From: an uncultured Thermoplasmata archaeon
GTDB lineage: Archaea; Thermoplasmatota; Thermoplasmata; Halarchaeoplasmatales; Halarchaeoplasmataceae
Direction: 5' to 3'
Assembly: GCA_964535805.1 (NCBI GenBank)
Contig: CAZHUM010000001.1
Span: forward strand, 39,122 to 103,121
DNA length: 64,000 nt
The notes under the pieces are model-generated. The model searched no databases, had not been told where the DNA came from, and worked only from the letters and a program-made list of their open reading frames with translations. How positions within the stretch are numbered: position 1 is the first letter of the stretch; every line of letters starts with the position of its first letter. Below, piece by piece: positions 10,858-64,000 of the stretch. The translations under genes were made by a program, and so were the position numbers.

Positions 10858-11568
10858 ATGAAGAAAAGTTTGATAGATATCGGATTCGATAAAAAGGTTA
10901 CTTTTGTATCCAGGGAAAATAGGTTTTTATGTAGTGTTAAAAACAGAAATGATGATATTTTAACCGTTCACGTTAGAGACCCCGGCAGGTTAAAGGAAAT
11001 ACTGTATCCAGGAAATATGGTTCTGATAAGAGAAGCGGAGAATCCCGATCGAAAGACTGATTGGGATCTGATAGCGGGTAAAGTGGATGACAACTGGATC
11101 TTGGTTAACTCTGGATTTCATCGAGAGATAACCGAAACAATCTTGGAGGACGAAGAACTGAATCCGATGGGCGACTACGATTTCTATCAAGCGGAAAAGA
11201 AACTCGGAGACAGCAGGATAGATTTTTTGTTGAACAAGGGGGAGAAAAAAACCTGGGTTGAAGTAAAGGGCTGCACTTTGACAAAGAATAAAATCGCACT
11301 GTTTCCAGACGCACCCACCAAGAGAGGAACGAGGCATGTTAGGGAGCTTATGGAGGCTGTTGGGCGAGGGGATTCGGCGGCATTGATCGTCCTGGTTTTC
11401 AGACCGGATGCGGAATGTTTCGCACCCAATGAAGACACGGACCCGGATTTTGCCGGTGTTTTTAGAGAGGCTGTCGAGAGTGGGGTCTCGGTCCGCCCAC
11501 TGCTCCTCCAATACGAAGGGGGTACACTGTTCTTCAAAAAAGAGATCCCGGTGTGCACGGATCCATAG
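10858..11568 (+). CDS. sfsA: SfsA-family protein (sugar fermentation stimulation / nuclease-related DNA-binding).
   Basis: Full-length collinear similarity to SfsA (FVSRENRFLCSV...NKIALFPDAPTKRGTRHVRELME). Confidence 0.75.
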   Translation: MKKSLIDIGFDKKVTFVSRENRFLCSVKNRNDDILTVHVRDPGRLKEILYPGNMVLIREAENPDRKTDWDLIAGKVDDNWILVNSGFHREITETILEDEELNPMGDYDFYQAEKKLGDSRIDFLLNKGEKKTWVEVKGCTLTKNKIALFPDAPTKRGTRHVRELMEAVGRGDSAALIVLVFRPDAECFAPNEDTDPDFAGVFREAVESGVSVRPLLLQYEGGTLFFKKEIPVCTDP

Positions 11569-11610
11569 AACCTTTTAAAAACTGATAACATATTATGTAG
11601 AGCAGATAAC

Positions 11611-12348
11611 ATGACAGTAACAGACATCAATATTCTCACGCCCAGGAAGATGAAAGAGGGTGATGGAGCCGAGATTCTCCGTTTGTTCCCAGGTCCTGAC
11701 ATAGAGCACTTCGATCCGTTCGTGCTGCTGGACGAGTTCTTCGTTGAACCCGGAGCGGGATTCCCTATGCATAAACACGCTGGATTCGAAGCTATCACGT
11801 ACATGATCGAAGGCGGATTCAAACACCGAGACAACATGGGGAACGATTCCTGGGTTGATCCAGGAGGAATACAGAAATTCAATGCGGGGAAGGGTATAGA
11901 GCACGAGGAGATGCCGGTGGGTGAATCTGGAAGCCGCGGTTTTCAACTGTGGGTTAATCTGCCCATGGAGTATAAGGACTCTGAACCTGGTTATCAGAAG
12001 GTGAAATCAGAAGAAGTGCCCGAGTGGAATGATGAAGGTATAAAGGTAAGAACTGTAGTGGGCGAGGGTTCACCAATCGGGATGTACGCGGACATGCTTT
12101 TCTTGGACATCCGTCTAGAAGAGGGTGCGGAATACGATATGAATATACCGAGTCACTTCCACGGGATACTGTACATCTATGAAGGAAGCATGAAGGTCAA
12201 CGGGAAGGTTCTAGACTCGCACCACGCCATGTTCGTCAAAGACAAGAGCGAATTCAAAATGATAACTGATGAAGACACGAAATTCATCGTCATAGCTGGA
12301 GAGCCGCTGGGTGAATCGATCAATATCAGAGGTTCGATAGTGGAGTGA
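11611..12348 (+). CDS. Pirin-family cupin protein.
   Basis: Pirin N-domain metal site PMHKHAGFEAITYMIEGG...H...E plus a C-terminal cupin. Confidence 0.8.
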   Translation: MTVTDINILTPRKMKEGDGAEILRLFPGPDIEHFDPFVLLDEFFVEPGAGFPMHKHAGFEAITYMIEGGFKHRDNMGNDSWVDPGGIQKFNAGKGIEHEEMPVGESGSRGFQLWVNLPMEYKDSEPGYQKVKSEEVPEWNDEGIKVRTVVGEGSPIGMYADMLFLDIRLEEGAEYDMNIPSHFHGILYIYEGSMKVNGKVLDSHHAMFVKDKSEFKMITDEDTKFIVIAGEPLGESINIRGSIVE

Positions 12349-12367
12349 ATTCAAAAGAGTGTGTAAC

Positions 12368-13201
12368 ATGTCGGGTATAACTTTCTTCAAGACTGGCGAC
12401 TTGGAACGGATCAAGGACTTCTACATCAACGAGGTCGGGATGACCACCTGGGTAGACCAGGGGTCTTGCATCATCCTTAAACACGGCAACATGCTTCTCG
12501 GTTTTTGCGAAGGAGATGATACTGAGACCGAGGGTGTGGTCACATTTTTCTATGACGGTAAAGAGCAAGTAGATGGAATGTACGAAAAATTTAAAGATAG
12601 AGCTAGAGGGGAGCCGAAAGAGAATCCACCGTACAATATATACAATTTCTTCGCGGAAGATCCGGATGAAAGGACCATAGAATTCCAAACCTTCCTGCAC
12701 GATCTAGAGCCCTATCTAGATGGAAAGGAACTGCTTCTCAGCAGACGGTCGGTAAGGGATTACAAGGAAAAAGAAATCGAAGAAGACATACTCCGGAAAC
12801 TTTTCGAGCTCTGTAGGTGGGCCCCCACATCCAAGAACTCAGAGTCTTATTACTTTGTTCCGATCCACGACCGTGGTGTGATTGAAAAGTTAGGGGTAAT
12901 AAGGGGCACAAGCAGTCAGCCGATATCCAATGCACCCATGGCGTTGGCGATCTGCTCTGACCCTGGGAAAACTAAACGAAAAAAACAGGACGGCTGCATC
13001 GCTGCCTATCATTTCATGTTGGCCGCTAAGCTGTTCGGTCTCGGCACCTGCTGGATCGCCGATATGGACAGGGATGAAGTCAAGGATTTGATCGACGTCC
13101 CTAAAGAGCACTACGTAGCGACGGTCACACCTCTGGGTTATCCCGAAAATATCCTAGATGCACCGGAAAGACACTCCGCAGAGGATTATGTGGACAAGTA
13201 G
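12368..13201 (+). CDS. Fusion of a glyoxalase/VOC domain (N-terminal, about 115 aa) with a nitroreductase domain (C-terminal).
   Basis: The N-terminus has a VOC beta-alpha-beta-beta-beta pattern. The C-terminus has a nitroreductase signature (RRSVRDYKEKEI..., CIAAYHFMLAAKLFGLGTCWI). An alternative GTG start lies at 12359. Confidence 0.6.
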   Translation: MSGITFFKTGDLERIKDFYINEVGMTTWVDQGSCIILKHGNMLLGFCEGDDTETEGVVTFFYDGKEQVDGMYEKFKDRARGEPKENPPYNIYNFFAEDPDERTIEFQTFLHDLEPYLDGKELLLSRRSVRDYKEKEIEEDILRKLFELCRWAPTSKNSESYYFVPIHDRGVIEKLGVIRGTSSQPISNAPMALAICSDPGKTKRKKQDGCIAAYHFMLAAKLFGLGTCWIADMDRDEVKDLIDVPKEHYVATVTPLGYPENILDAPERHSAEDYVDK

Positions 13202-13213
13202 GTCGGGTAAAAG

Positions 13214-13879
13214 TTATTTAAATACCTCGCCGGCCTCCATGTACCATAGAACCAAATCGAGGTGGCCCGGTGGGATGCCGACCTCGTGGGAAAATTCTCT
13301 CATCCTTTCTTCGATATCTAGATATCTTTTTACCGTCAAAGAATTCGGGATATCGTCGATCACACCGAGTCTTTTCAGATTCTTCAGTATGTGTCTGTCC
13401 AGTATGGCAAGGTCATCTCCCTTTCCTATATTCCTTAAAAAGTGGCTCGCCTCTTTGTACCCCAACCCCTTAACGTTCTTCACCAGCCATCTCCGCGCCT
13501 TTTTTTGATCTTCAAAATCTTCCAATATATCTCTCAAAACGCACCCGTCTTTGCCCATGAATTTATCTCTAGCCTCGACCAGATAACCAGCCTTGTTGTT
13601 CCGAAACCTTACCCTCCTGATCATCTCGGAAAGCTCATCTTCTTCAGCATGTAACAGAGCCTCTTTCTGCTTCAACTCCCTTACAGTCGCCCAGCAAACT
13701 TGTGCCTTGGACTGAGGTGTGAACAGGCAAAAAACGAGTTCTTCGAACAGTCTAGACCCTTCTCCACATTCCCATATCTTATTGAATTCTCTTATCCTTT
13801 CACGTACCACTGGTTCGATCTTTTCGTAGATTCTCTTCAACTCTTCGATAGTGAGTTCTTTATCGTCGATCTTGATCAC
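13214..13879 (-). CDS. ogg: 8-oxoguanine DNA glycosylase / AP lyase, archaeal Ogg2-type (HhH-GPD).
   Basis: HhH-GPD region [21 protein letters not shown]...DLAILDRH with the conserved Lys/Asp. The size of about 220 aa is typical of Ogg2. Confidence 0.6.
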
Positions 13880-15929
13880 CCTTTATACTATTCTTGAATT
13901 GTTCTATGCCGGTCAAGGGTCTTCCGCAGGTAAACTCCGTGCACATATACGCAGTGGTTTTTTCGTCGATCTTGTTCATCTCCTCTGCATAGGGGACTAT
14001 TTCGGAGATATATTCTGAGTTTTTTAGCAACAATACGGCAGATGGTAAAAAGTGGTTCCTGACCACATCCAGCATCTCAGATGTTTGTTTGTCGTCCATA
14101 TCACCAACTATCACTATCTCAGAACCAGGATGTATCGTTGTAAACAAAGCGGAGAGGAACATCGTATGCTGAGACGGGATCCTCACAACATTCCTGGAGA
14201 ATGCAGAGCTCAGCTTTTGAGCGTATTCGTCGAAATCGGTTTCACCGGTCAACTGTGATAGCTGATTGAGGATGAGAAGGGCGATAGAGTTGCCGGATGG
14301 GAGCGCACCGTCGGAAACTTCCTTAGTTCGATAAGGCAGCTCGTGGGACCTCTCGGATGTGAAAAAAAATCCTCCGTTTTTATCATCCCAGAAGAGGTTT
14401 AGCATGGTGTGGGTCAATTCCACCGCTTTTCTAAGATAGCGGATGTCAAAGTCTGCCTGGTAGAGTTCGAGCAGCCCCCAGATGAAGAAAGAATAATCCT
14501 CTAGGTTCCCCTCGACTTTTGATTCTCCTGCTATGTAAGAGTGAAGAAGAACGTCTCCGTCTAAGAGTTCCTGCATGATAAAATCGGATGCTCTTTTCGC
14601 CCTTTCCAGCATCTCTTCATCATTGAAAACGAATGCGGCCCTGGAAAGTGCGGTTATCATAAGACCATTCCAATTCGTTAGTACTTTTTCGTCCACTTCC
14701 GGAGCGGGTCGTTTCTCCCTTGCATTAAGAAGTTTAGTTCTCATTTCTTCGTACTCTTGGACCCTTAAACCGTGCTTATCTAGAACATTATCCAGGTGGT
14801 TCTTCAGATAGAAAACATTCTTGCCCGTTCTCTTACCTGTTGCCTCATCTTCGAAATTGCCCTTTTTTTCCGTGTTGAACATTTTTTTGATAAGTTCTGC
14901 TTTTCCCCCTAATATGTCATCCAACTCCGATTCGCTCCATATGTAATAAGCACCTTCTCCTTCCGGAGTATCGGCGTCCTGGGCGGAGTAAAATGCACCA
15001 TCTGGAGATGTCAATTCTCTGTCCACGTACTCAGCTATCTCATACACAGTTCTTTTGAACAAAACTTCACCGGCAGCTTGGTATCCTTCTGTGTAGGCTA
15101 GCAGCAGCATAGCTTGGTCGTAGAGCATCTTCTCGAAGTGCGGTAGTTTCCATCTCCTGTCGGTGGAGTAGCGGTGAAAACCATAGCCGATGTGATCGTA
15201 AACGCCCCCTCGCCTCATCTTCGATAGTGTGTTCTTGACCATCTCTAGAGCGTACGCGTCGTCGTTCTCTTTCCAATATCTCAAAAGAAATAGAATATTA
15301 TGGGTCAACGGAAATTTAGGGGAATCTCCGAATCCACCGTTCCTTTCATCGTACCTGTGTTCCACTTCTCTGAATCCCTGGTCGAAAACGTTATCCGTCA
15401 GTTGAACCCGAGACTTTGAACCGGCCTTCTCCATTGAAGTCAATATTCGTTGTCCGTCTTCCTCCAATTCCCGTCTTTTGTTATCCCACATCTGCTTTAT
15501 TCTAGGGATTATCTGCAGCATGCCTGATCTACCGTACCTTGTCCTTTTAGGTATATATGTTGCCGCGAAGAATGGTACCTTTTCAGGTGTCATTATGATA
15601 GTAAGCGGCCAGCCACCGCTTCCCGTCATCGCTACGGCCACTTTCATGTAGAATGAATCCACCTCGGGTCTTTCCTCTCTATCGACTTTGATATTGACGA
15701 AAGTGTCGTTCATGAGTTCCGCCACTCCCTCGTCGGTGAAGGATTCGTGTGCCATGACATGACACCAGTGGCATGATGAATATCCTATCGACAGGAATAT
15801 AGGTTTGTCCTCTTCCTTCGCTTTCTTAAAAGCTTCATCGCACCAAGGATACCAATCGACTGGATTATCGCTGTGCTGCTTGAGGTATCTGCTCCCCTCA
15901 CCGGCCAAGTGGTTTTTATCGGAATTCAT
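13860..15929 (-). CDS. Thioredoxin-domain protein of the DUF255/YyaL (SSP411) family with a C-terminal (alpha/alpha)6 toroid.
   Basis: The N-terminus DNPVDWYPW...[18 protein letters not shown] is the hallmark of this family. Length is 689 aa. Confidence 0.8.
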
Positions 15930-26678: not shown

Positions 26679-26864
26679 TAAACTTAGAAAGGGGTGTCCC
26701 TTACTATTAATCTAATTGATATATCATAAAGTGTTATACCCTAAAATATATTTAATTCATTTTTTTAAAATCCGAAAAATCAATAAGCTTAATTATCCCG
26801 TATCTATTGGGGGTATATCGCTCTAACCATGGGTTTCATTCAATGTAGCCATGGAGGGATAGGC

Positions 26865-34602: not shown

Positions 34603-34611
34603 TTCATTGCT

Positions 34612-37515
<2,904 letters not shown>

Positions 37516-37523
37516 TGTTTATC

Positions 37524-45300: not shown

Positions 45301-45804
45301 CCAATCGAAGTAAAACAGGTATACGGTGTCGATGTAGTTCCCGTCGCAATGAGAACGGTTTACGATAATGGTAAACTTACATACCGTGTGAAAGTTGAGA
45401 ACAGCGGAAACGGGGATGACAGCTATAAATTATCTCTGCTCAACAAAGGATACCTTGAATCACAGGGATGGGAAGCTTCAGTTAACAATGAAACGGAAAC
45501 GATCACGGATGGTGGCCAAGAAGAGATAGAAATAACACTTAAGGCGAGATCAAGTAAGCCCAGCAGGAAAGTTGATGTAGAGTTAGAAGTCGTTTCTAAT
45601 GGGGATTCATCGGTTTATGAAGAAGAAGTACTAGAGGTTGTCCTACCAGAGATTCAATCAAGTAGCGATAATTTCTCACTTCACGGAAAGAATCTTGCTA
45701 CTGAGAAAGAGAAACTGGAGATCACGACAGGTCAGTGGTCGGTTATAATCATACTGGTGTTGATCTCTACATTCTATGTGGCTAGGAAGAAGAGGTGGAT
45801 ATGA
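39349..45804 (+). CDS. aglB: Giant AglB/STT3 oligosaccharyltransferase (2,151 aa). It comprises a 13-TM STT3 core with a WWDYG periplasmic domain, then about 1,100 aa of tandem CarboxypepD_reg/Ig-like beta-sandwich repeats and a C-terminal TM anchor with a polybasic tail.
   Basis: GGSDAYYYGRI first-loop acidic motif, multi-TM N-terminus and FLSWWDYGFECAR motif. Repeated G-K/N-V-x-x-x-x-G-x-P-I-x-x-A-x-(L/V)-T-V and D-(E/G)-x-G-x-Y modules run from about residue 900 to 2,050. It ends ...WSVIIILVLISTFYVARKKRWI. AGGTGA RBS is present. Confidence 0.85.
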   Translation: MRFSLPNLSKKTETRKHVDESILEKHWGTIVSLLGIFFLAFFIRTYFAFDLATKYGTPYLLSGGSDAYYYGRIIDYIQTNHQHLTFDPLLNYPMGSRNPRPPIFAWSIVLIGHLLSPFVGSVNVGINYAFILSTGFWGALTIFPVYLIGRDTFGKKAGMAAAFLLAISSGHLQRSPITNGDHDAIYLFFIVTAFYFFMKALEGIPDEKNWISSYKDPSAIKNGLKQFVMENKRSLLYSGLSGMSIASVALIWKGYAYVIVILIVYYFIQLFIDRLRTRDSLGITACIGISIGLAFLVSSPYYLIVGIGPRYFDIPLLMFAAGFGVGIFLTVTRDWPWVLTFSIIIAGLVVFILLGLYVLPSLLTALTSGAGYFVQTKAISTIAEAQAPAFSNLVMSFGLVSFFLSIAGIGLAIWHFKNSWKTNFLLILLWTALAIYMAMSAARFIFNSSPAFALTAGWVIALVVDKTDFPAISKTFQSFKGDVLYGIWKSVKLRHATVAVFVVFMIMVPNAMYGMDSGIPYEEKEGYNKQIHRALPEPIRPEGYNASSGDNWYLGAFGYALDKPNEYWPASWEWLARQDNDKEPAERPGFLSWWDYGFECARQGDHPTVADNFLNGHQLAGNVLMAQNESEILALFITRELEDTYSKSDGFDDDIEEILIDYIGEEKTHELERTFKDPERYKEEVLSNPEKYHPRDEDLDRHNIKYARCMGMLSYEGLDTLGELYRDISLKIDKRIKYIAMDTRLFPFSGTNTGIFYAPAKLSGHRIYEEHGMRTPIDFYKVLLVDEQGNEYENPDKVPQEVSITDYKIDYQPAFFNSTLYRVFAGYSAQEIGEGEGIPGLDNQELQPMPSWNMTHFKLSYRTAYFNPYPRDEVRDHPDAWKAISYEKALEYHQDDNVTVDLSAQSYMRQGVVYLEHFDGALISGKVTTEEGEPIANARLTVLDDTATPHQMDYTDEDGSYSLKVPSGNISVIASVGGLSGGQRAQNIESIMLGAFSMNISEEQAMRVKKDRDGDGTWDYLIDKNIKIDTGNLTVNVFVDENRDEKFSFENDTLVPGEITIENQRSGVEYVSEENNGSHTFTGILPGKYRVTTDVEGGMSITDVSVKSGAENEESIILTTGSISGNVEMDAENMNASSIELVVKNEEGGEMITSSIDQGGNYSIEHLRIGTYSIHVNTDGFAIREGAIRFIIDGEVSLTKNFNISRAERVNLRTKTSNKLLPYQKISFIDKENYRYSQTIQTGKEGKTEIKLPLGKYLVYGTVQRDNKFYVHMNTIEVTEEVNYTAELVRGFQVEGQVDSSEITSNMGSNILFSLDEDKQGLAATNREGLYSLVVEPGDYNIFGWNTVGATSSSFWKTETIDSETKIDFETKVSYRASGNVYRDLNLNGQYDKGEGISTEIKVTVSGNNYFFDSGFDGNYTLILPEKECRITFSKAGYIQKSVIYDPEVEFSRNINMNAKNLSVHGDIICNKEFSSLPVKFDPLSKGAVLNEISVNNSEYTTGLQPGDYEVTIYSSPSEGERYIYSTFVSLEPGEEDIELDLPVKYQVRMTGNIFGPAGDSTYAEIRLSGPEVRTLSGNGTYSGYFAPGNYTLWAVNKEEELINQTEVSLVSPIQLNITMEDAHIFSPFVTFDEEPRDNLPIMFEQIETGFVFNQTTDPDGTFNLPLVSGTYEVTVDYETTEPVEGVLRDVRYHYSDTFVIDSHMAPEIALNRDIINVTLEGVLKADDETVQGATIEFIANGPESMDTEVTTGSDGTYQLDISRGLYTVYCHVSGSKGLYAQFNEFIMPEANETLNINLSKAYKITGKVSKDSQDVEADIKVSSMKGVGEKIFHSDKNGEYEIVLPSGEYLITVTESVGGDNVYKASERIELEYSLKKNFVLKMVKEYGIETEELIEKTVKQGDNISFEVKVKNTGNTKDTYEFSAPKAIWDIEFTPKKMTVENGKTDTLIVDVHVSEDASANHPPISFNIDSMNSEKAEEVTLPIEVKQVYGVDVVPVAMRTVYDNGKLTYRVKVENSGNGDDSYKLSLLNKGYLESQGWEASVNNETETITDGGQEEIEITLKARSSKPSRKVDVELEVVSNGDSSVYEEEVLEVVLPEIQSSSDNFSLHGKNLATEKEKLEITTGQWSVIIILVLISTFYVARKKRWI

Positions 45805-49854: not shown

Positions 49855-52800
49855 CTAATAATCCACGGACCAATCTACGGGGGCATCCGCCCCATTATAG
49901 ACCCAATATGCTCTACCTTTTACCAAAACCTCGGTTGAAAGGTCTTGGATGTACTCCAGATTGTAGGGGGCCCATTCATTATAAACACCGAGTTTCGTGA
50001 TCTCTGATGGGAGGGTATTTGAGGCGATTTTATTAGATTCGGATGGATATCCTACCATGTTCCATCCTGGTTTCAATTCGATCTTTGTTCTGTATGGGTG
50101 ATGACCCTGGATGGTTAGTGTGTCGTTCTTCGTCATGTGTATCCAAATACCCATGGTATGATCCCATGTGTTAAGGTCGTTATAATGACTCGATCTACCC
50201 GCGGCGAACGTTTTCCACTCTCCATCTGTGCTGTCATAGTACATCACTTTATCGTAACTTCCTTCTATACCCCTTTCTGGGGCGTTCAACATTGATTCTA
50301 TGCTCTTATCTTTCGGAACTAAATTTGTAGAGATAAAATTCCATCCTTCTGATGCCCCGCTTGATCCTAGTGTGATATTGTGTGTCAAACTCCTTCTAGC
50401 TTCGTAATATCGGTCCCATAAAAAACTTCGGAAGGGATTGTAATGAACGTAGAGGAATCCTATCACCTCGGGATCGTTGGTCAATCTGTCCGTATCTATT
50501 TGGAACCAGTTGAACGTTCCGTCGTCGTTGAAAAATATATTGGAATATTTGATATTATCTATCTTAGAAACGTTCCTACCGGTGGTATTGTAAAGTGAGC
50601 TCCATGAGTTATATGTCGTGATCGTTGCACTTCCTCCGTTGTGTGTATCGATGGCAGACCTGATAGTGAGATGTTGTTCTACATAATCTGTGTAGTTATC
50701 GATCGTCTTGGATATGTTGTCCCAGTTAAGGTATGTATTTGTTCTGGCAAGTTCTTTGGCAGCTAGTGCACCATACTTCATGCTCCTTCGTCTCCATGGG
50801 TCCGGCTCATCTAGATAACTAAAATATGCCCAAGTGCCCTTGGAATCGCCGGTGTATATCTGATCGTTGATTATGTATCGAATACAAGTCCTCATGTGTG
50901 GTAAAAGCCTATCGTCGTGATAGTAACTGCTGTTCAAGTTTTCATCGAAGTACGCTTGTGTGAATAACCTGCCAAGTTTACTATAACCATTTACGTAAAC
51001 AAATGGATGGTCTTTGTTCACCCCTTTTATCCCCCCTGAACCGTTGTTGGGTTCCGTGGATGTCCATGGCACGGTGTAGTTGATTCCACCATGATATGTG
51101 ATATTGTCCATGGCCACCTTGTTCAAAATAAAATCGATGACCGTATCGAATGCATTTAGATACGTTTCATTGTGTGTGTAAAAATATGCATCCTGCAGGG
51201 CCAAAGCGGCTCTAACGTTTCTATGTGTGTTCCATTCCTCGTATGTATCTTCAAATAGTCCTCTTACTTCGTAAACCGTACTAAAATTGTACAGACCCCA
51301 CTCATCCCTGAAGCTCAAGGCGTAATCGAATTGTTTTTCTCCTCTTTCAAGATAGCTATCGTTACCGGTGCGTGCGTGAGCACCGTAGTATGCAAGTCCC
51401 ATCTCCATCAATATATCAGGCAGCCAATCTTCGTAGATCGTATAATACCCGTCGGCATCTTCGTTCTTTACCCCCCATTCCATCATCTGCAGGCATTTTT
51501 CTGTTTTGTTCTTATAGGGCACGATGGTTTCGTTGTAATAACCGGCGAAGAAAACGTCTGACCACGCCTTGAGGTTGTCATCTGTAATGGATCGAACCGG
51601 GTCGATTTCAGCGCGTATCTTATCATATCCTTCAACCTCTGGAATCCAATCTACTGATATTTTTTCAGACGCATCCGGTGACACGGAGATACTCTTTTGT
51701 GCGATCGGAATTTCTCTGTAATAGAACGTAACATTACCTTGGTAGTTTTGTGTAAGATTACTGGTGACGGAAACGGATAAAGTTATGTTCTGCGGACCCA
51801 TAGAATTATTTATGGGTACGAAAGAGGTGGGATCGGTGGTGACGTTGGTAAGGTAAATCCTTTCCGTGGTTGAGGTGTTAAGAGAGATGAAATTATAAGA
51901 GGAGGGTGAGAAGTAAGTAGTTTTATTGTCCGCTGTTATCCCGAAAATATTTTTTTGTGAATATGTGCTGCCGTTAGTCCTCCATATGAATGGTATCTCG
52001 TGTAATCTACCGATGTCATCGGTCCAGTAGGTTCTCTCACTACCGCCCTCCTTTGGGAAAATTTTTACTTCATGATTTTCGAGTATATCGCTACCGTTCT
52101 TCACCAGAAAGTCATGATAGTAGCCTTTCTTGATACGCCCGCCAGATGTTATCTCCCAGTCATCTATGGTGCAGTTCATCAGAGTTAAATTCCCACTGCT
52201 GGTCACGCTAGCATCGTATTCCCAGTTATCATAGAATGTAGAATTCGTGATGTTCACGAAATTGGTCCCGCTCGATAGTAGAATTCCTGTACTGTCAAAA
52301 TTTTTAAAGGTTATATTATTGAGATATTGGTCGGTTATATCTCCGGCGGCATAGAAAACCAGTCCGTTTAACCCGCTGGACAGTATGGTGTTCACTATTT
52401 CTACACCAGTACCATAGATCTCTATCCCCCTTTTACCTACGTTATTACCCCACCCCGTGTCCATTATATGGCTCCCTTCAACGTACAAAGTACCGGATTC
52501 GTTCTTATGTATGTTGTATCGGTTCTCTCCTTCCCACCACCTCTTTTCCTCGGGCTTGCCCGCTATCTCTGAGCGAGTTATGTTAACCCCTCCGGTTGAG
52601 TTTATCTGGAAGGTTTTTTCGTTATCAAAATATAGGGTCTCATCCGTTATATTCAACCATCCTTGAACCGTAAGATTCGCATAACAATACCCCGTGCGGT
52701 TTGGACTGTCGTAGTAGAAAACGGTTTCATCGCCAACATCAGTGTATATCGATGAGAGTGAATTACCTCCTCCAAACACATAGATCGTATCATGGGATGA

Positions 52801-52926
52801 AGAATAAGAGGATGTAGATGGTGTGAGGCTAATACCTTCTTCACTCGATATTCCCTCTAAATAAATGGGAGTTATCATCAAAATGACTAGTATCAATGCA
52901 GCTACTCCTCTGGTTATCTTCATCAA
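49855..52926 (-). CDS. Secreted 1,023-aa protein with an N-terminal right-handed parallel beta-helix region and a central (alpha/alpha)-toroid-like region. It is a probable heavily N-glycosylated surface protein or glycan-processing enzyme.
   Basis: Signal peptide MMKITRGVAALILVILMITPIYL. Beta-helix repeats (NITFKNFDSTGILLSSGTNFVNITNSTFYDN). It contains more than 30 N-x-S/T sequons. Confidence 0.55.
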   Translation of the reverse strand: MMKITRGVAALILVILMITPIYLEGISSEEGISLTPSTSSYSSSHDTIYVFGGGNSLSSIYTDVGDETVFYYDSPNRTGYCYANLTVQGWLNITDETLYFDNEKTFQINSTGGVNITRSEIAGKPEEKRWWEGENRYNIHKNESGTLYVEGSHIMDTGWGNNVGKRGIEIYGTGVEIVNTILSSGLNGLVFYAAGDITDQYLNNITFKNFDSTGILLSSGTNFVNITNSTFYDNWEYDASVTSSGNLTLMNCTIDDWEITSGGRIKKGYYHDFLVKNGSDILENHEVKIFPKEGGSERTYWTDDIGRLHEIPFIWRTNGSTYSQKNIFGITADNKTTYFSPSSYNFISLNTSTTERIYLTNVTTDPTSFVPINNSMGPQNITLSVSVTSNLTQNYQGNVTFYYREIPIAQKSISVSPDASEKISVDWIPEVEGYDKIRAEIDPVRSITDDNLKAWSDVFFAGYYNETIVPYKNKTEKCLQMMEWGVKNEDADGYYTIYEDWLPDILMEMGLAYYGAHARTGNDSYLERGEKQFDYALSFRDEWGLYNFSTVYEVRGLFEDTYEEWNTHRNVRAALALQDAYFYTHNETYLNAFDTVIDFILNKVAMDNITYHGGINYTVPWTSTEPNNGSGGIKGVNKDHPFVYVNGYSKLGRLFTQAYFDENLNSSYYHDDRLLPHMRTCIRYIINDQIYTGDSKGTWAYFSYLDEPDPWRRRSMKYGALAAKELARTNTYLNWDNISKTIDNYTDYVEQHLTIRSAIDTHNGGSATITTYNSWSSLYNTTGRNVSKIDNIKYSNIFFNDDGTFNWFQIDTDRLTNDPEVIGFLYVHYNPFRSFLWDRYYEARRSLTHNITLGSSGASEGWNFISTNLVPKDKSIESMLNAPERGIEGSYDKVMYYDSTDGEWKTFAAGRSSHYNDLNTWDHTMGIWIHMTKNDTLTIQGHHPYRTKIELKPGWNMVGYPSESNKIASNTLPSEITKLGVYNEWAPYNLEYIQDLSTEVLVKGRAYWVYNGADAPVDWSVDY

Positions 52927-60323: not shown

Positions 60324-61607
60324 ATGGCAAAGAAGATACGTAGTGAAAGCGGTACTATATACTGTTCTTATTGTGGAACCGCTGTTTCGGAAGAGGACGA
60401 AAACTGTCCAAACTGCGGAGAAAAATTAGATGAGGGGGTTATCGAGGGCAAGGTATGCCACGCCTGTGGAACGCCCGTTGGCAATCTTGAGGACGTGTGC
60501 CCTAAATGCGGGACCAATTTGATAGGTGATAGCGAGTCCAAGAAAGAGGACGATGAGTTTCTGTCCCGGTTGATCGGATGGGGGGATGAGGCTGAGGAAA
60601 AATTGCAGAGCAAGATTGAAGAGAAAAGGAAAGCCGCGGACGTATTCAGGAAAGTCGCTTCCGGGATGGGGGTTGAAGAAGGAGAGGGGAGAGGTATATT
60701 ACTAGAGGAACTGGACGAGCCATTTCAGAAAGTGATAGAAGCCACTCAGGATAGGATCAAGATCGTAGAGAACAATATCGTGGAATTAGAGGAAAAAGTT
60801 GAAAAAACAGAGGGAGAGGAATTAGAGATAACAGAAGATGAACTGAGGATGCTAAGAGAGGAAAAACAGAACCTTCTGGATATGATCGACTGTTTGAACA
60901 ATATGGGCGAAGCTGTGAATGCCCTATTAGACAAACAAAAATTCGAGATGGAAGAAAAACAGGAAGAACTCAAAGACCGTGTCAGGGAGTTCAAAAAGGT
61001 GGTGAAACAGAGGGAGAAGGAGAAAAACAAAATCGAAGATAAAAAGGATAAACTTGTCCGAAGAGAAAAAGAATTGAAGCAGTGGGAGAACCAGTTACGT
61101 GCCTGGGAACAAGACCTCAACGACAAAGAAAAAAGATTGGAAGAGATGAAAAAGAAGTACGAGGAAGGGGGAGAAAAGCTGGAAGAGATCGAAGAAGAGA
61201 TGCCAGAAGAAGGGGCCGTTACTCCCGATGAATGGCTGAAGGAACAAAAGAAGATCCAGAGCGAACTATTCAAGCTGAAGGACATGTGGGGCGAGGAGGA
61301 CATGGATGAGATAGAAAATCTCTCAGATGCGAATATTGCTCAGATCAAGAATGTGATCAAAAAGAAGGAAGTGGAGTGGCAGGAAAAGGTAGATGAATTA
61401 GAGAAAGAATTAGAAGAATTAAGAGAAGAAAGAGACCGGTTAAAGGAAGAAGGTGGAGAACTTGATGTGAAGATCGACGAGATCGAATCCATCCTTAAGA
61501 TTTTAGACAGTTTATTAGGCGAGCTGCCAGAAGATAAGATTAAGGAATTCGCGAAATCGGATGAATTCGAACTTTACGAAAAAGTCTTGGATGCTTTCGG
61601 GATATAG
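60324..61607 (+). CDS. Double zinc-ribbon protein with a long C-terminal coiled coil.
   Basis: N-terminal CSYCG...CPNCG and CHACG...CPKCG, followed by about 300 aa of E/K-rich heptad sequence. Confidence 0.6.
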   Translation: MAKKIRSESGTIYCSYCGTAVSEEDENCPNCGEKLDEGVIEGKVCHACGTPVGNLEDVCPKCGTNLIGDSESKKEDDEFLSRLIGWGDEAEEKLQSKIEEKRKAADVFRKVASGMGVEEGEGRGILLEELDEPFQKVIEATQDRIKIVENNIVELEEKVEKTEGEELEITEDELRMLREEKQNLLDMIDCLNNMGEAVNALLDKQKFEMEEKQEELKDRVREFKKVVKQREKEKNKIEDKKDKLVRREKELKQWENQLRAWEQDLNDKEKRLEEMKKKYEEGGEKLEEIEEEMPEEGAVTPDEWLKEQKKIQSELFKLKDMWGEEDMDEIENLSDANIAQIKNVIKKKEVEWQEKVDELEKELEELREERDRLKEEGGELDVKIDEIESILKILDSLLGELPEDKIKEFAKSDEFELYEKVLDAFGI

Positions 61608-61619
61608 GTGTTTTTTAAA

Positions 61620-64000
61620 TGGGTCTAAGAGAAAGAGCGAAAAAAGTTCTTGAAGAAGAAGAGAAGGCCGGATCTAAAACCGAAGAGATCGAGGAGGAGA
61701 TAGATGAGAAAGAGAAAAGATTGAAGGAACTAGAGGAAGAGATAGATTCCCTCGAAGGTGAAAAAGAAAAGCTAAACAAATCTATCGATGAGTTAAGTGA
61801 AGAAAGGGAAAGTATGGAGAGTAAGGAAGAAAGGGTAAAAGAGCTGGAAGGTGAAATCCAATCGTTAGAAGGAAGGAAGGAAGAGCTGTCAAAGTCTATA
61901 GAGGGGCTAGAAGAGGAAAAAGAGGACGTAAAAGAGAAGAAAGGAGAGATCTCTGAACTAAAAGATGAAATAGCTCAACTTGAAGATAAAAAAGAGGAAC
62001 TCAACACATCCATCTCTGAGTTGGAGGAAGAAAAAGAAGCGCTGAAGGAGGAGAGGGGTAAGATAAGCGAGATGGATGAAGAATTACAGGAATTGGAACA
62101 GAAGAGAGATGAGCTGAAGGAGGAAAAGGAAAAACTATCCGATGAAGTAGAGACCCTAGAAAAAGAGAAAAAGAAATCCGAAGGGGCCAAAAAAGAACTG
62201 GATAAGATCAAAGCAGAGATAGACGAACTACGTAAAGAAAAGAAAGATATCAAACAGAAGAGGGAGGATATAGATAAGAAAGAAGAGAAGGTTGAGAAAG
62301 AAAGAGAAGCACTTGAAAAAGAAAAGGAAGAACTGGAAAAGAGAAAAGAAGTACTTGGAAACTTGGAGGAGAGGAAAAAGGAACTGGATGCAAAGGAAGA
62401 AGAGATTCAGGAAAAGGAAGATGGTTTAAAAGCAACGAAAGAGGAAGTGGGGGAGAAAAAAGAAGAATACGAGAATAGATTGGCCGAGTTGGGGGAGAGG
62501 GAAGAAGAGGTACAGAACATAAAGAGAAGTCTCGACGGAAGAAAGGGTGCCATGACCAGGAAGGAAAACGCCCTGGAAAAGAAAGAGGAGGAGCTGGAAG
62601 AATTAGAAAAAGAATTAGAAGAAAAGAAAAAATTGATGGAAGAGAAAGAAGAGACCCTCAGAGAGGACATTAAGAATGAGTTGTACGAAGAGAAAAGGGA
62701 AGAATTAGAACAATTGGATCAAGATATAGTTGATAAAAAAGAGGAGGCTGAGAAACTTGAATCCAATCTTGAAGAACTGAGAGAAGAGCTCAAGGACTGG
62801 GAGGAGAAAAAAGCAGAGCTAACCGAGGAGAGAGAGAGATTAGAAGAGAAAGAAGACGCCTTGGATGAAAAAGAAGCTGAGATCGGAAGAAGGGAGGTCG
62901 ATGTAGAAGAGAAAGAAGTTCTGATAGAGAAGGCAGAAAAGAAACTAGACGAGCTGTCATCAAAAGAAGAGGAACTTGACGCGTTTCAGGAAGAACTGGA
63001 TCAGAAGGAGGATTCGCTATCCGATAGAGAGCAGGAAATAGAAGCCAAAGAAGATGAACTTGAGAAGAGAGAAAAAAATCTGGACGACAAGCGAGAAGGA
63101 CTGGATGATAAAGAGAGTGAATTCGGTGAAAGAGAGGAAAAGATATCTGAAAAAGAGGATTCCCTAGAGAGTAAAGAAGAGGAATTACAGAAATTCGAGG
63201 AAGATTTAGAGAGCAAAGAAGAAAGTTTGGAGAAAAGAGACTCTGAACTAGGCGATTTGGAGGAAGAGTTGACCGACCTTGAGAAAGGATTAGATGAAAA
63301 ACAAGAAACCCTGGAGTCATTAGAAAATACATTAAAGGATAGGAAGGAGGATCTCGACCAAAGAGAAGAGAAAATCGCTGAAAAAGAGAGTAAGCTCCAG
63401 CAAAAAGATACACGGATGGCCGAGTGGGAGGCCGAAGTAGAGGAGAGGGAAGAAGAACTGGATTCTAGAGATAAAGAACTTGATCGGCTTGAGGAAAGTT
63501 TGAATGAGAAAGAAGAGGAACTTACTGAATTGGAAGATGAACTAGATGCCCGTTCGAACAGACTAGAAGATCTCGAAGGGAACCTTGATGAAGTTCAAGC
63601 AGAACTCGTGGAGAGAGAAGAAAAGATCAAGACGAGGGAGAAGGAACAGGATGAAAGGAAGGAACATCTAGACAGCAGACAAAAACAATTGAACGAGAAA
63701 GAAGAAGAACTGCAGAAACTAGAAGACCAGATACAAACCGAACAAAAAGAGAACGAAGATAAAGAGAAAGAACTCAATGAGAGGAAGGAAAAGCTCAATG
63801 AAAGAGAAAGTGATCTAGATGGAAGAGAAAAGTCTCTCGATGAATGGGAGAACGGGTTAAACGAGAGAGAAAATGAACTAGAAGAGAGGTCTGAAGAGAT
63901 CGGCGTTAAAGAAAATGAGCTTAAAGATCTGGAATCCAGATTGGATAAGAAGGACAATAATTTGAAGGAAAGGAAAGAAAAATTAGATGCTAGGGAAGAT
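61620..64000 (+). CDS. Giant coiled-coil protein (more than 793 aa, 3'-truncated by the window end). It is an extremely regular heptad array of the form (K/R)-E-x-x-L-x-x.
   Basis: ATG 12 nt after the preceding stop. Manual translation shows no stop through position 64000. More than 40 consecutive heptads have a single aliphatic residue (L/I/V/M) at a fixed position. Confidence 0.65.

What the first reader, a model, noticed from the sequence alone, without database searches (positions are those of the whole stretch)
61620..64000. Heptad-perfect giant coiled-coil gene with 21-nt DNA periodicity
For more than 40 consecutive heptads the pattern (K/R)-(E/D)-x-x-(L/I/V/M)-(D/E/N/Q)-(E/K) holds without stutters or stammers. 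There is one aliphatic residue per heptad and otherwise only charged residues. It lies between a leucine-zipper-like seam and a single-alpha-helix (SAH) domain, and is far more regular than SMC or Rad50 coils. No ATPase head is visible in the first 790 aa. Together with the preceding double-zinc-ribbon coiled-coil protein (60324..61607, 12-nt spacing), this may be a filament or ruler-like structural pair. Because the gene runs off the window, its full size is unknown.
Basis: seen in the sequence. Interest (0 to 1): 0.55.

Follow-up and report, generated by a model that had tools for sequence, protein, structure and literature searches.

The report
Headless 200-nm archaeal coiled-coil rod
This is the first 794 codons of a real, conserved 1351-residue archaeal gene for one almost unbroken helical rod about 200 nm long with no enzyme head. 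It is always encoded after a zinc-ribbon partner protein and appears to dock onto it through a short peptide-and-domain pair that other microbes use next to pilus motors.

Summary
An ORF starts at ATG 61619 and stays open to the window end. It has 21-nt periodicity and 50 in-register heptads inside the window. An identical public contig gives the whole gene: 1351 aa, all helix, one Pro, no Cys, no Walker A. It is therefore not SMC or Rad50. The host is a soda-lake Thermoplasmata archaeon.

In about 20 Thermoplasmata and Methanomassiliicoccales genomes, the upstream protein (double zinc ribbon, coiled coil, C-terminal TP_0179 domain) is followed by such a rod of 1149-1739 aa. Nothing else in the neighbourhood is conserved.

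Selection is strong (dN/dS 0.09). Constraint follows the heptad positions: a, then e and d, are tightest, and b, c and f are loosest. Position a is 98% hydrophobic and position d is mostly Arg/Lys. Indels come in sevens. This fits an assembled coiled coil, not a single alpha-helix.

The main new finding is a gene-order rule. Proteins ending in TP_0179 are almost always followed by a gene starting MGL(R/L)xKA. This holds in archaea and in two bacterial loci, and the partner is usually a pilus ATPase. I infer a plug-and-socket dock. Function is untested; the best guess is a fixed-length scaffold or tether.

The parts
60324..61607 (+). Upstream partner gene, 427 aa. It has an N-terminal double zinc ribbon, a central coiled coil and a C-terminal TP_0179 domain. 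It is cytoplasmic, with no transmembrane segment.
   Evidence: Pfam DZR 34 bits (cut-off 27.3) and Zn_ribbon_3 41 bits. Homologues P0001-P0006 carry precomputed PF27359 TP_0179. Alignment. AF2 model has pLDDT 77. Maximum Kyte-Doolittle 19-residue average is 0.85.
60363..60509 (+). Double zinc ribbon, aa 14-62, with four CxxC pairs at C14, C28, C45 and C59.
   Evidence: The AF2 model shows beta strands here.
60549..60590 (+). Conserved motif DDE(F/Y)LSxL(L/I)GWGDE, aa 76-89. Its role is unknown.
   Evidence: L80 and W86 are invariant in alignment A1.
61476..61604 (+). TP_0179 C-terminal domain (the proposed 'socket'), about aa 385-427: ILKILDSLLGELPEDKIKEFAKSDEFELYEKVLDAFGI.
   Evidence: Invariant residues L391, L394, D395, L397, L398, L401, P402, F409, A410, S412, L417 and Y418. 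The AF2 model shows the end of a long helix plus helices 403-410 and 413-424. It is the only such motif in the window.
61605..61618 (+). TAG stop of the partner gene plus the 11-nt spacer. An AGGTG Shine-Dalgarno-like element lies at 61606-61610, 9-13 nt before the ATG. The arrangement looks like a translationally coupled operon.
   Evidence: Sequence read. Spacing of 4-18 nt is conserved in most orthologous pairs.
61619..64000 (+). Giant coiled-coil rod gene. The window holds the first 794 of 1351 codons, and the gene continues 1674 nt past the window end.
   Evidence: The full gene is on the identical contig L001 at 11296..15351.
61619..61654 (+). N-terminal peptide MGLRERAKKVLE (the proposed 'plug').
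   Evidence: Conserved as MGLR(D/E)(K/R)A(K/R)K in all orthologues. In distant orthologues it is followed by a disordered linker. The motif class occurs almost only in genes that follow a TP_0179 gene.
61655..62953 (+). N-terminal third of the rod, aa 13-445. Heptad segments of 35-107 residues are separated mostly by +3 register shifts. A conserved non-heptad patch LDGRKGAMT lies at aa 304-312.
   Evidence: The AF2 single-sequence model shows helix breaks at 185-189, 304-315 and 427-430.
62954..64000 (+). Start of the unbroken central heptad segment, aa 446-887 (aa 446-794 lie in the window). Position a is Leu-type in 62 of 64 heptads, and position d is K/R in about three quarters.

Best explanation
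**What is shown**
- The window ends inside the second gene of a conserved two-gene module of Thermoplasmata archaea.
- Gene 1 encodes a cytoplasmic adaptor with a double zinc ribbon, about 300 aa of coiled coil and a C-terminal TP_0179 domain.
- Gene 2 encodes a 1351-aa protein that is essentially one continuous alpha-helix. At the coiled-coil rise per residue this is about 200 nm. It has no globular head, no Cys and a single Pro.

**What is inferred from constraint patterns**
- The rod works as an assembled, multi-stranded coiled coil.
- Its core alternates Leu/Ile/Val layers at position a with conserved ionic layers, made of Arg/Lys at position d next to Glu at position e.
- Strand number and orientation are not determined. 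A parallel in-register dimer is the simplest geometry.

**What is inferred from gene-order statistics only**
- The rod's N-terminal peptide MGLR(D/E)KAKK is a short docking motif ('plug').
- It binds the TP_0179 domain ('socket') at the C-terminus of the protein encoded just upstream. The two products would then assemble as they are made from one mRNA.
- The same plug-and-socket pairing joins accessory proteins to PilB-type ATPases or platform proteins in type IV filament loci of other archaea. It also joins unrelated protein pairs in spirochaete-like bacteria.

**Least certain step**
- The complex probably serves as a fixed-length structural scaffold or tether.
- It would hold whatever the zinc-ribbon end binds at a set distance from whatever the conserved patches and C-terminus of the rod bind.
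- In some lineages the rod end carries an added (HhH)2 DNA-binding domain or an inactive-KaiC (DUF835) domain.
For: **The gene is real and complete**
- The window is identical to contig L001 over 13.7 kb, and the same gene is on contigs assembled from three further sequencing runs.
- dN/dS is 0.094 against the closest orthologue, which is 75.6% identical over a gapless 1351 aa.

**It has no head**
- It has no Walker A motif, no CxxC and no transmembrane segment.
- Pfam, NCBIfam, PADLOC and PHROGs match only coiled-coil arms. Every score is below the family cut-off except two repeat-summed matches of no biological weight (RNase_Y_N, 64.6 bits against 32; Surf_Exclu_PgrA, 77.3 against 70), each added up from many short coiled-coil stretches.
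- No solved structure is related by sequence.

**The pair is conserved**
- 18 loci carry both genes, or carry the first gene with the second cut by the contig end. Flanking genes differ between lineages.

**It behaves as a coiled coil**
- Position a is 98% hydrophobic. Position d is R 27%, K 23%, E 14% and L 12%.
- Substitutions per heptad position are a 11, d 17, e 20, g 26, b 34, c 40 and f 56, out of about 109 each.
- Column entropy across 9 orthologues rises in the order a, e, d, g, b, f, c.
- 30 of 31 indels in residues 446-887 are multiples of 7, and there are none in 888-1212.
- Charge pairs between positions d and e are 32 attractive against 7 repulsive.

**Plug and socket**
- 64 of 74 ORFs ending in TP_0179 are followed within 91 nt (usually 4-17 nt) by an ORF starting MGL(R/L)xxA.
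- Only 63 of 906 ORFs in those loci have that start.
- The partners are T2SSE ATPases or a T2SSF protein.
- The pairing also occurs in two bacterial loci.
- The motif is repeated internally in some ATPases.
- In distant rod orthologues it is followed by a 30-80 aa acidic or Pro-rich linker.
- The TP_0179 tail co-varies with plug residue 4.
- Stand-alone TP_0179 proteins of 35-83 aa exist.

**Extra domains in some lineages**
- L030 carries an (HhH)2 domain, and L026 and L027 carry DUF835.
Against: - No physical interaction was tested.
- The plug-and-socket co-variation is confounded by phylogeny and has exceptions (L024, L028, L045, L055).
- Some TP_0179 genes lack an MGL partner. These are the roughly 860-aa KaiC-like class, L094 and L096.
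- Classical g-e' pairs for a parallel in-register homodimer are mostly repulsive, 27 against 13 attractive. The oligomeric state is therefore open.
- A basic d position is unusual for a stable core.
- No neighbouring gene points to a cellular process.
- Total rod length ranges from 1149 to 1739 aa across the class, which weakens a strict ruler idea.
Confidence: 0.45

Rival explanations
1. The rod is an accessory part of a type IV filament (pilus or archaellum-like) or KaiC-like ATPase machine. Its plug, or the adaptor's socket, would connect to a PilB/ArlI-type ATPase or an ArlH/KaiC-type ring encoded elsewhere in the genome. The rod would position or regulate that machine.
For: - The same TP_0179 to MGL pairing sits directly in type IV filament loci, next to T2SSE, T2SSF, pilin and prepilin peptidase genes.
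- L060 shows a chain: TP_0179 protein, then MGLL-coiled coil-TP_0179, then MGLL-ATPase.
- Some rod orthologues carry DUF835, an inactive KaiC-like domain (named iKaiC in PMC5847659).
- A class of TP_0179 proteins of about 860 aa carries KaiC domains.
Against: - None of the 18 rod loci has a T2SSE, T2SSF or pilin gene within 7-10 kb.
- The window holds no other plug or socket.
- Genomes in the scan showed either the rod pair or the ATPase pair, never both, but the scan pattern was narrow.
Confidence: 0.17
2. It is a chromosome or DNA tether. The zinc ribbons, and in some lineages the (HhH)2 domain, would bind DNA. The rod would bridge or space DNA from another cellular site, as an ATP-independent analogue of SMC-like organisers.
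For: - The L030 orthologue has a strong (HhH)2 match at aa 42-95 (HHH_5, 56.9 bits against a cut-off of 27).
- A 76-aa TP_0179 protein also carries HhH matches (P0225).
- Zinc ribbons often bind nucleic acids (general knowledge).
- Automatic pipelines label homologues as SbcC-like.
Against: - The window protein and most orthologues have no HhH domain.
- The rod is strongly acidic, with 513 D+E against 311 K+R.
- There are no ATPase heads.
- No DNA-metabolism genes are linked.
Confidence: 0.12
3. It is a monomeric single alpha-helix or entropic spacer. In this view the Leu stripe is incidental, and the protein acts as a stiff charged linker rather than an assembled coiled coil.
For: - The sequence is 60% charged, with only one hydrophobic residue in most heptads.
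- Position d is mostly K/R.
- The e and g positions are both acidic, so g-e' pairs are repulsive.
Against: - i to i+3/i+4 salt-bridge pairs are not enriched over shuffles.
- Constraint falls on the a/d/e face, with f the freest position in the pairwise comparison and b, c and f the freest across the nine orthologues.
- Heptad phase is preserved by indels in multiples of 7. None of these is expected for a solvent-exposed single helix.
Confidence: 0.1
4. It is a spurious low-complexity ORF or an assembly artefact.
For: - The exact sequence is absent from the protein collection.
- A word-indexed search with it returned nothing.
- HMMER finds only weak, generic matches.
Against: - It is identical on contigs assembled from four different sequencing runs.
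- Orthologues of conserved length, termini and register architecture occur in about 20 genomes.
- dN/dS is 0.09.
- A Shine-Dalgarno-like AGGTG lies before the ATG.
Confidence: 0.01

Closest known systems
SMC / Rad50 / archaea-specific SMC-related proteins (ASRP), JetC, LmuB
   Same: Very long coiled coils in prokaryotes. Profile searches align the rod to their arms (SMC_prok_B 167 bits, ASRP 154 bits, JetC 82 bits).
   Different: All scores are far below the family cut-offs (567, 300). Matches cover arms only. There is no ABC ATPase head, no hinge, no zinc hook and no central fold-back loop. The protein has no Cys and one Pro.
Bacterial intermediate-filament-like coiled-coil-rich proteins (crescentin, FilP, Scy) and tropomyosin-type head-to-tail cables
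   Same: They are headless, almost wholly coiled-coil cytoplasmic rods. Scy is of similar size (from my own knowledge). Conserved N- and C-terminal ends could support head-to-tail overlap.
   Different: There is no sequence relationship. Scy uses a non-heptad long repeat (own knowledge), whereas this rod uses a strict 7-residue repeat with a basic d position. There is no 28-residue charge period of the myosin or intermediate-filament kind. Filament formation is untested.
Eukaryotic long coiled-coil tethers (EEA1, golgins)
   Same: The architecture is analogous: a rod of about 200 nm with small zinc-binding or peptide-binding modules at the ends, as in EEA1 (own knowledge).
   Different: There is no homology. 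Here the zinc module is on a separate polypeptide. No membrane-binding domain was detected.
ER/K single alpha-helix (SAH) domains
   Same: Glu, Lys and Arg dominate the composition, and the helix is long and uninterrupted.
   Different: A Leu-type residue occupies 98% of a positions. There is no enrichment of i to i+4 E-to-K/R pairs. Constraint is specific to one face of the helix.
Pfam PF27359 (TP_0179 domain), named after Treponema pallidum hypothetical protein TP0179
   Same: The upstream partner ends in this domain, and homologues carry the precomputed Pfam hit.
   Different: The family has no known function. Papers that mention tp0179 treat it only as a hypothetical gene in recombination and selection scans. 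Its systematic pairing with an MGL-start downstream gene appeared in none of the four papers opened in full nor in the listings of the nine literature searches run.
Accessory proteins of archaeal type IV filament systems (for example the gene preceding the ATPase)
   Same: In many archaea a TP_0179-ending protein directly precedes the PilB-type ATPase, which starts with the MGLLEKAQ motif. A 2026 preprint proposes that the variable N-terminal extensions of these ATPases are interfaces for accessory proteins (10.64898/2026.04.22.720090).
   Different: The rod locus contains no filament genes, and the downstream partner is a coiled coil instead of an ATPase.

Membership tests
SMC / Rad50 / SbcC / ASRP | N- and C-terminal halves of an ABC ATPase head (Walker A, Walker B, signature motif) | tested here: not met
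   There is no [AG]xxxxGK[ST] motif in the 1351 aa. Profile matches cover only coiled-coil positions and fall below the cut-offs.
SMC / Rad50 / SbcC / ASRP | Central hinge or CxxC zinc hook that folds the arm back on itself | tested here: not met
   The protein has no Cys and one Pro (at 1151), and no G/P/S/T/N-rich 15-residue window. The mid-molecule stretch 446-887 is one unbroken heptad run.
Canonical left-handed coiled coil | 7-residue periodicity of apolar residues over long stretches | tested here: met
   Lag-7 autocorrelation is 0.59. Runs of 33, 31 and 25 heptads occur, against a shuffle maximum of 8.
Canonical left-handed coiled coil | Apolar residues at both the a and d positions | tested here: not met
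   Position a is 98% hydrophobic, but position d is only 23% hydrophobic and 50% R/K.
Canonical left-handed coiled coil | Evolutionary constraint greatest on the core and flanking positions and least on the outer positions | tested here: met
   Substitutions per position are a 11, d 17, e 20, g 26, b 34, c 40 and f 56. The entropy order is a, e, d, g, b, f, c.
ER/K single alpha-helix (SAH) | Dense i to i+4 (and i+3) Glu to Lys/Arg networks, and no hydrophobic seam | tested here: not met
   The salt-bridge score is 0.221 against 0.218 +/- 0.008 in shuffles. A Leu seam is present in 62 of 64 central heptads.
Intermediate-filament-like / coiled-coil-rich cytoskeletal proteins | Self-assembly into filaments without nucleotide, and a cytoskeletal role in the cell | not testable with these tools
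   This needs purified protein or imaging. Sequence searches give no relationship.
Pfam DZR (PF12773), for the upstream partner | Two consecutive CxxC...CxxC zinc ribbons scoring above the gathering threshold | tested here: met
   34.0 bits against 27.3. Four CxxC pairs lie at residues 14, 28, 45 and 59.
Pfam TP_0179 (PF27359), for the upstream partner | C-terminal motif of about 40 aa: LDxLLxxLPExxIxxFxxSxxFxLYxK | tested here: met
   The model is missing from the local Pfam copy. However, full-length homologues at 45-56% identity carry the precomputed hit, and every motif residue is present in the window protein.
Archaeal type IV filament (TFF) locus | Co-located T2SSE ATPase, T2SSF platform, pilin and prepilin peptidase genes | tested here: not met
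   None lies within 10 kb on either side in L001, or in the other rod loci. They are present in the comparison loci L095 and L096.

The most novel reading that the evidence does not exclude
The TP_0179 C-terminal domain and the MGL(R/L)xKA N-terminal peptide would be an ancient, general plug-and-socket. It would couple the products of adjacent genes in both Archaea and Bacteria, including coupling accessory proteins to type IV filament ATPases.

In Thermoplasmata it would nucleate a previously unknown cytoskeletal cable. The 200-nm rods would join head to tail. The rod's C-terminal ...MKKHLDxLL helix copies helix 1 of the TP_0179 domain. Each junction would be formed by that helix, the next rod's N-terminal plug and the zinc-ribbon adaptor, much like the tropomyosin overlap complex with troponin T.
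Probability: 0.15. Interest if true: 0.8.

Novelty: new variant of a known kind. Interest (0 to 1): 0.55.

Why it matters
- **Rare in prokaryotes.** A 22-proteome survey predicted coiled-coil domains over 250 residues to be largely absent from bacteria. SMC proteins and their relatives were the only long coiled-coil family it found conserved across all kingdoms (PMC1322226). A conserved, headless rod of about 200 nm in Thermoplasmata is therefore a strong candidate for an unexplored structural element. This class contains many wall-less organisms (general knowledge; not checked for this lineage).
- **Unusual core.** The Leu at position a, Arg/Lys at position d and Glu at position e form a natural test case for how a coiled coil can be held by alternating apolar and ionic layers.
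- **A testable gene-order rule.** The plug-and-socket pairing makes a concrete, cheaply testable prediction about protein-protein interaction. It applies to hundreds of uncharacterised gene pairs, including the ATPases of archaeal type IV filament systems and T. pallidum TP0179-family proteins.

Tried and rejected
- **Translation from 61620.** This frame is wrong and full of stops. The frame of 61622, with ATG at 61619, is the open one.
- **The search for homologous proteins with the full rod.** It returned nothing at E <= 1e-10, because low-complexity words saturated the candidate list.
- **Exact look-up of the rod and two orthologues.** None is in the protein collection.
- **Exhaustive HMMER search with the 794-aa fragment.** It gave 876 hits at E <= 1e-3 and none at <= 1e-30. 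All are generic coiled coils or unrelated 7-residue repeat proteins. It did not recover the true orthologues.
- **PDB sequence searches** and **Foldseek of the adaptor model**. Nothing significant was found. The weak haemagglutinin HA2 matches are coiled-coil noise.
- **AF2 of the 794-aa fragment, single sequence.** The model is 97% helix with pLDDT 70 and pTM 0.22. It gives no information on oligomer state, and its helix breaks should not be over-read.
- **Sigma-70 promoter and terminator scan.** It is not informative for an archaeon.
- **Antiparallel homodimer centred on residue 666.** The +3 shift at residue 445 and the +4 shift at 887 would be compatible. The many N-terminal shifts have no counterparts in 888-1212, so the model cannot hold for the whole molecule.
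- **Long-range charge periodicity of the myosin or intermediate-filament type.** None was found.
- **Halophily as the sole cause of the acidity.** Non-halophilic Methanomassiliicoccales orthologues are less acidic but keep the architecture.
- **Literature searches.** Searches for TP0179, SpiroCoCo, Thermoplasmata coiled-coil cytoskeleton and archaeal type IV filament accessories found no description of this pair.
Full report
**1. The observation**

Translation from 61620 gives a frame full of stops. The open frame begins at ATG 61619 and stays open to 64000, which is 794 codons. The upstream gene ends with TAG at 61605-61607. That leaves an 11-nt spacer with an AGGTG element overlapping the stop.

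The composition of the 794 residues is E 32%, K 16%, L 12%, D 8% and R 6%, with no Pro and no Cys.

The claimed 21-nt periodicity is real. Identity at lag 21 is 0.453-0.459, against 0.361 +/- 0.007 in codon shuffles. Multiples of 21 are also raised. Tandem Repeats Finder reports only a few short, weak 21-nt arrays. The period therefore reflects a protein pattern and not a recent DNA expansion.

Hydrophobic residues recur with a lag-7 autocorrelation of 0.59. The longest perfect in-register run is 33 heptads, while 1000 shuffles never exceed 8.

Residues 442-791 are 50 heptads in one register, and 48 of them have a hydrophobic core residue. Exactly one hydrophobic residue occurs in 33 of 50. 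The register claim stands, but the 'only charged otherwise' claim is overstated.

**2. The complete gene**

I looked up the exact upstream protein in public assemblies. This returned contigs from four sequencing runs of one project. Contig L001 is identical to the window over the 13,677 shared bases and carries the whole gene at L001 11296..15351, encoding 1351 aa.

The protein is heptad-patterned from end to end:
- It has one Pro, no Cys and no Walker A motif.
- It has no loop-like 15-residue window (eight or more G/P/S/T/N) and no hydrophobic segment.
- At 0.1485 nm per residue it would span about 200 nm.

Pfam, NCBIfam, PADLOC and PHROGs align only to coiled-coil arms, including SMC, ASRP, Rad50, JetC, LmuB, RNase Y N-terminus and FlbB. 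All scores fall below the curated cut-offs, apart from two repeat-summed matches (RNase_Y_N and Surf_Exclu_PgrA) that carry no biological weight. No solved structure is related.

**3. The organism**

The window carries an archaeal 23S rRNA gene. The flanks encode archaeal mevalonate-pathway genes and fibrillarin.

The closest genome records are Thermoplasmata MAGs from soda-lake and hypersaline sediments. They include Candidatus Haladaptatiplasma and Candidatus Saliniplasma. A review describes this group as an order of halophilic Thermoplasmatota (PMC11332174).

**4. A conserved two-gene module**

The upstream 427-aa protein has four recognisable parts:
- a double zinc ribbon (Pfam DZR and Zn_ribbon_3 above threshold);
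- a conserved DDEYLSxLLGWGDE motif;
- about 300 aa of helix;
- a C-terminal motif LDxLLGxLPEEKIxEFAKSxDFELYEKVL.

Its homologues carry the precomputed Pfam family PF27359, TP_0179. An AF2 model (pLDDT 77) shows beta ribbons at residues 1-65 followed by long helices. The TP_0179 part is the end of a long helix plus two short helices.

A scan of one genome per species found full-length relatives in about 20 Thermoplasmata, Methanomassiliicoccales and related MAGs. Wherever the contig continues, the next gene, 4-91 nt downstream, encodes a rod with these features:
- a length of 1149-1739 aa with the heptad pattern;
- an N-terminus MGLR(D/E)(K/R)A(K/R)K;
- in 15 of 17 cases, a C-terminus ending ...(R/K)I(D/E)xMKxHLDxLL.

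All-against-all comparison of ORFs in 18 loci shows that only these two genes are shared by all. The flanks agree only among close relatives.

**5. Evidence that the rod is a functional, assembled coiled coil**

Against the closest orthologue (L010, gapless, 75.6% identical), dN/dS is 0.094.

Substitutions depend on heptad position. The counts are a 11, d 17, e 20, g 26, b 34, c 40 and f 56, out of about 109 each. Column entropy over nine orthologues gives the order a 0.82, e 1.18, d 1.32, g 1.62, b 1.75, f 1.83 and c 1.91. This is the signature of an interface on the a/d/e(/g) face.

Over 16 orthologues, position a is L 65%, I 16% and V 11%, which is 98% hydrophobic. Position d is R 27%, K 23%, E 14% and L 12%. 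Position e is 43% Glu and position g is 40% Glu.

The segment architecture is conserved:
- an N-terminal third built of short segments separated mostly by +3 shifts;
- an unbroken stretch of 424-442 residues;
- a +4 shift;
- an unbroken stretch of 317-326 residues;
- a conserved non-heptad patch at residues 1201-1245.

Among nine orthologues that are only 29-44% identical, 30 of 31 indels in residues 446-887 are multiples of seven. There are none in 888-1212. An aligner will favour period-sized gaps in periodic sequence, but the complete absence of indels in 888-1212 does not depend on that.

The single alpha-helix reading is not supported, because i to i+3/i+4 opposite-charge pairs equal the shuffle expectation.

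The oligomeric state remains open. Adjacent d/e charges are complementary (32 attractive against 7 repulsive), which would suit d-e' ionic layers. Classical g-e' pairs of a parallel in-register homodimer are mostly repulsive, 27 against 13.

No myosin-like long charge period exists.

Long single-hydrophobic heptad arrays are not unique to this family. Unrelated proteins in the global library show runs of 50-75 heptads.

**6. The plug-and-socket rule**

The loci fetched through the TP_0179 motif revealed a wider regularity. Of 74 ORFs ending in that motif, 64 are followed by an ORF starting MGL(R/L)xxA. The gap is usually 4-17 nt, once the genes overlap, and the maximum is 91 nt. Only 63 of 906 ORFs of 150 aa or more in those loci have such a start.

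The downstream partners are diverse:
- mostly PilB-type T2SSE ATPases of about 600-720 aa;
- once a T2SSF platform protein;
- sometimes other coiled coils.

L095 is a full type IV filament locus, with prepilin peptidase, pilin, a TP_0179 protein, an MGLLEKAHQKK... ATPase and two T2SSF genes. L060 shows a chain: a TP_0179 protein, then MGLL-coiled coil-TP_0179, then an MGLL-ATPase.

Several further observations fit a docking motif:
- The motif recurs internally two or three times in some ATPase N-termini.
- Stand-alone TP_0179 proteins of 35-83 aa exist.
- The rule also holds in two bacterial loci. In a Brevinematia genome the order is fliS, a 609-aa acidic TP_0179 protein, then MGLRKKAQKYL.... 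In a second locus a 55-aa TP_0179 protein overlaps the start of MGLLSKT....
- In distant rod orthologues the MGLR peptide is followed by a 30-80 aa acidic or Pro-rich linker before the coil starts. That is how a short docking motif on a tether would look.
- The extreme C-terminus of the socket co-varies with plug residue 4. MGLR goes mostly with ...YEKVLDxxGI, and MGLL goes mostly with ...YEKVMxKYKIK. There are exceptions, and phylogeny confounds the pattern.

From this I infer, but have not shown, that the TP_0179 domain binds the MGL peptide of the protein made next from the same mRNA.

None of the nine literature searches listed a paper describing this pairing, and none of the four papers I opened does. 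Papers naming tp0179 treat it as a hypothetical gene. A 2026 preprint on archaeal type IV filament systems notes only that subsystem-specific N-terminal extensions of the ATPases may be interfaces for accessory proteins.

**7. Hints to function**

The rod's C-terminal consensus KKERIEKMKxHLDxLL resembles helix 1 of the partner's TP_0179 domain (ExxxILKVLDDLL-GxLP...). It stops exactly where helices 2-3 would begin. This suggests, speculatively, a junction involving both ends of the rod and the adaptor.

Two divergent lineages insert a globular domain just after the plug:
- an (HhH)2 DNA-binding module in L030 (56.9 bits);
- DUF835 in L026 and L027 (about 100 bits), a domain classed as an inactive KaiC-like module.

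The rod is thus the constant part, and what it carries near its docked end varies. No neighbouring gene indicates a pathway.

**8. Verdict**

The finding is a real, complete, strongly constrained gene for a headless coiled-coil rod of about 200 nm. It is paired with a zinc-ribbon and TP_0179 adaptor across Thermoplasmata.

It is not a member of the SMC/Rad50 families, not a single alpha-helix, and not demonstrably an intermediate-filament-like protein. It is best filed as a new variant of long structural coiled-coil proteins.

The most interesting result is the inferred plug-and-socket coupling, which it shares with type IV filament loci and some bacteria. A role as a fixed-length scaffold or tether is my best guess, with overall confidence about 0.45 for the combined statement. 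The main rivals are an accessory role in a type IV filament or KaiC-like machine, and a DNA-tethering role.

Noticed in passing
window 34607-37520 (+): A complete archaeal 23S rRNA gene stands alone. Rfam found no 16S or 5S rRNA elsewhere in the 64-kb window, so the rRNA genes appear unlinked.
   Followed up: no
window 26829-31631 (+): A 1600-aa DNA polymerase D large subunit (DP2) is interrupted by an intein with a LAGLIDADG endonuclease domain at about aa 876-1347.
   Followed up: no
window 39349-45804 (+): A 2151-aa protein combines an N-terminal STT3/AglB oligosaccharyltransferase domain with a long tail of CarboxypepD_reg, transthyretin-like and Ig-like repeats. This is unusually large for an AglB.
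   Followed up: no
window 49855-52926 (-): A 1022-aa acidic protein with a signal-peptide-like N-terminus has no Pfam match. It lies beside a glycan-biosynthesis cluster with Polysacc_synt, DUF354, sulfotransferase, FemAB-like and polysaccharide deacetylase genes.
   Followed up: no
L035, L051, L053, L057, L071, L077, L089 (for example L035 4676-7279): A separate class of proteins of about 860 aa has KaiC-like ATPase, DUF7504 and MEDS-type domains and a C-terminal TP_0179 motif ending ...LYLEExx. The next gene does not start with MGL. It encodes about 470 aa and starts M(I/M)xPxExRVxDI.
   Followed up: partly
L090 5564-8465; L092 5001-8967: In bacteria the TP_0179 and MGL pair sits next to flagellum-related genes. 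These are fliS in Brevinematia and two MptE-like (motility-accessory-factor-type) genes in the second locus, which also has a TP_0183_C gene nearby. This hints at a flagellar context for the T. pallidum TP0179 family.
   Followed up: partly
L001 15296-15348 (rod C-terminus, outside the window) compared with window 61476-61520: The rod's last 16 residues (KKERIDEMKKHLDELL) resemble the first helix of the partner's TP_0179 domain (IESILKILDSLLGELP). They end exactly where that helix ends. This holds in 15 of 17 orthologues.
   Followed up: partly
P0018, P0028, P0034: Unrelated proteins from the global library contain 54-75 in-register heptads with a hydrophobic residue at the same position in every heptad; the +3 position is never hydrophobic in P0018 and P0028 and is hydrophobic in about a quarter of the heptads of P0034. 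Examples are the array DSELDAK/DSELETR/TAELAAK and an array KEExL in a membrane protein. Such arrays are therefore a recurrent sequence type.
   Followed up: partly
window 60549-60590: The motif DDE(F/Y)LSxL(L/I)GWGDE after the zinc ribbons has an invariant Trp. It loosely resembles the LDxLLGxLPE start of the TP_0179 domain and could be a second binding site.
   Followed up: no
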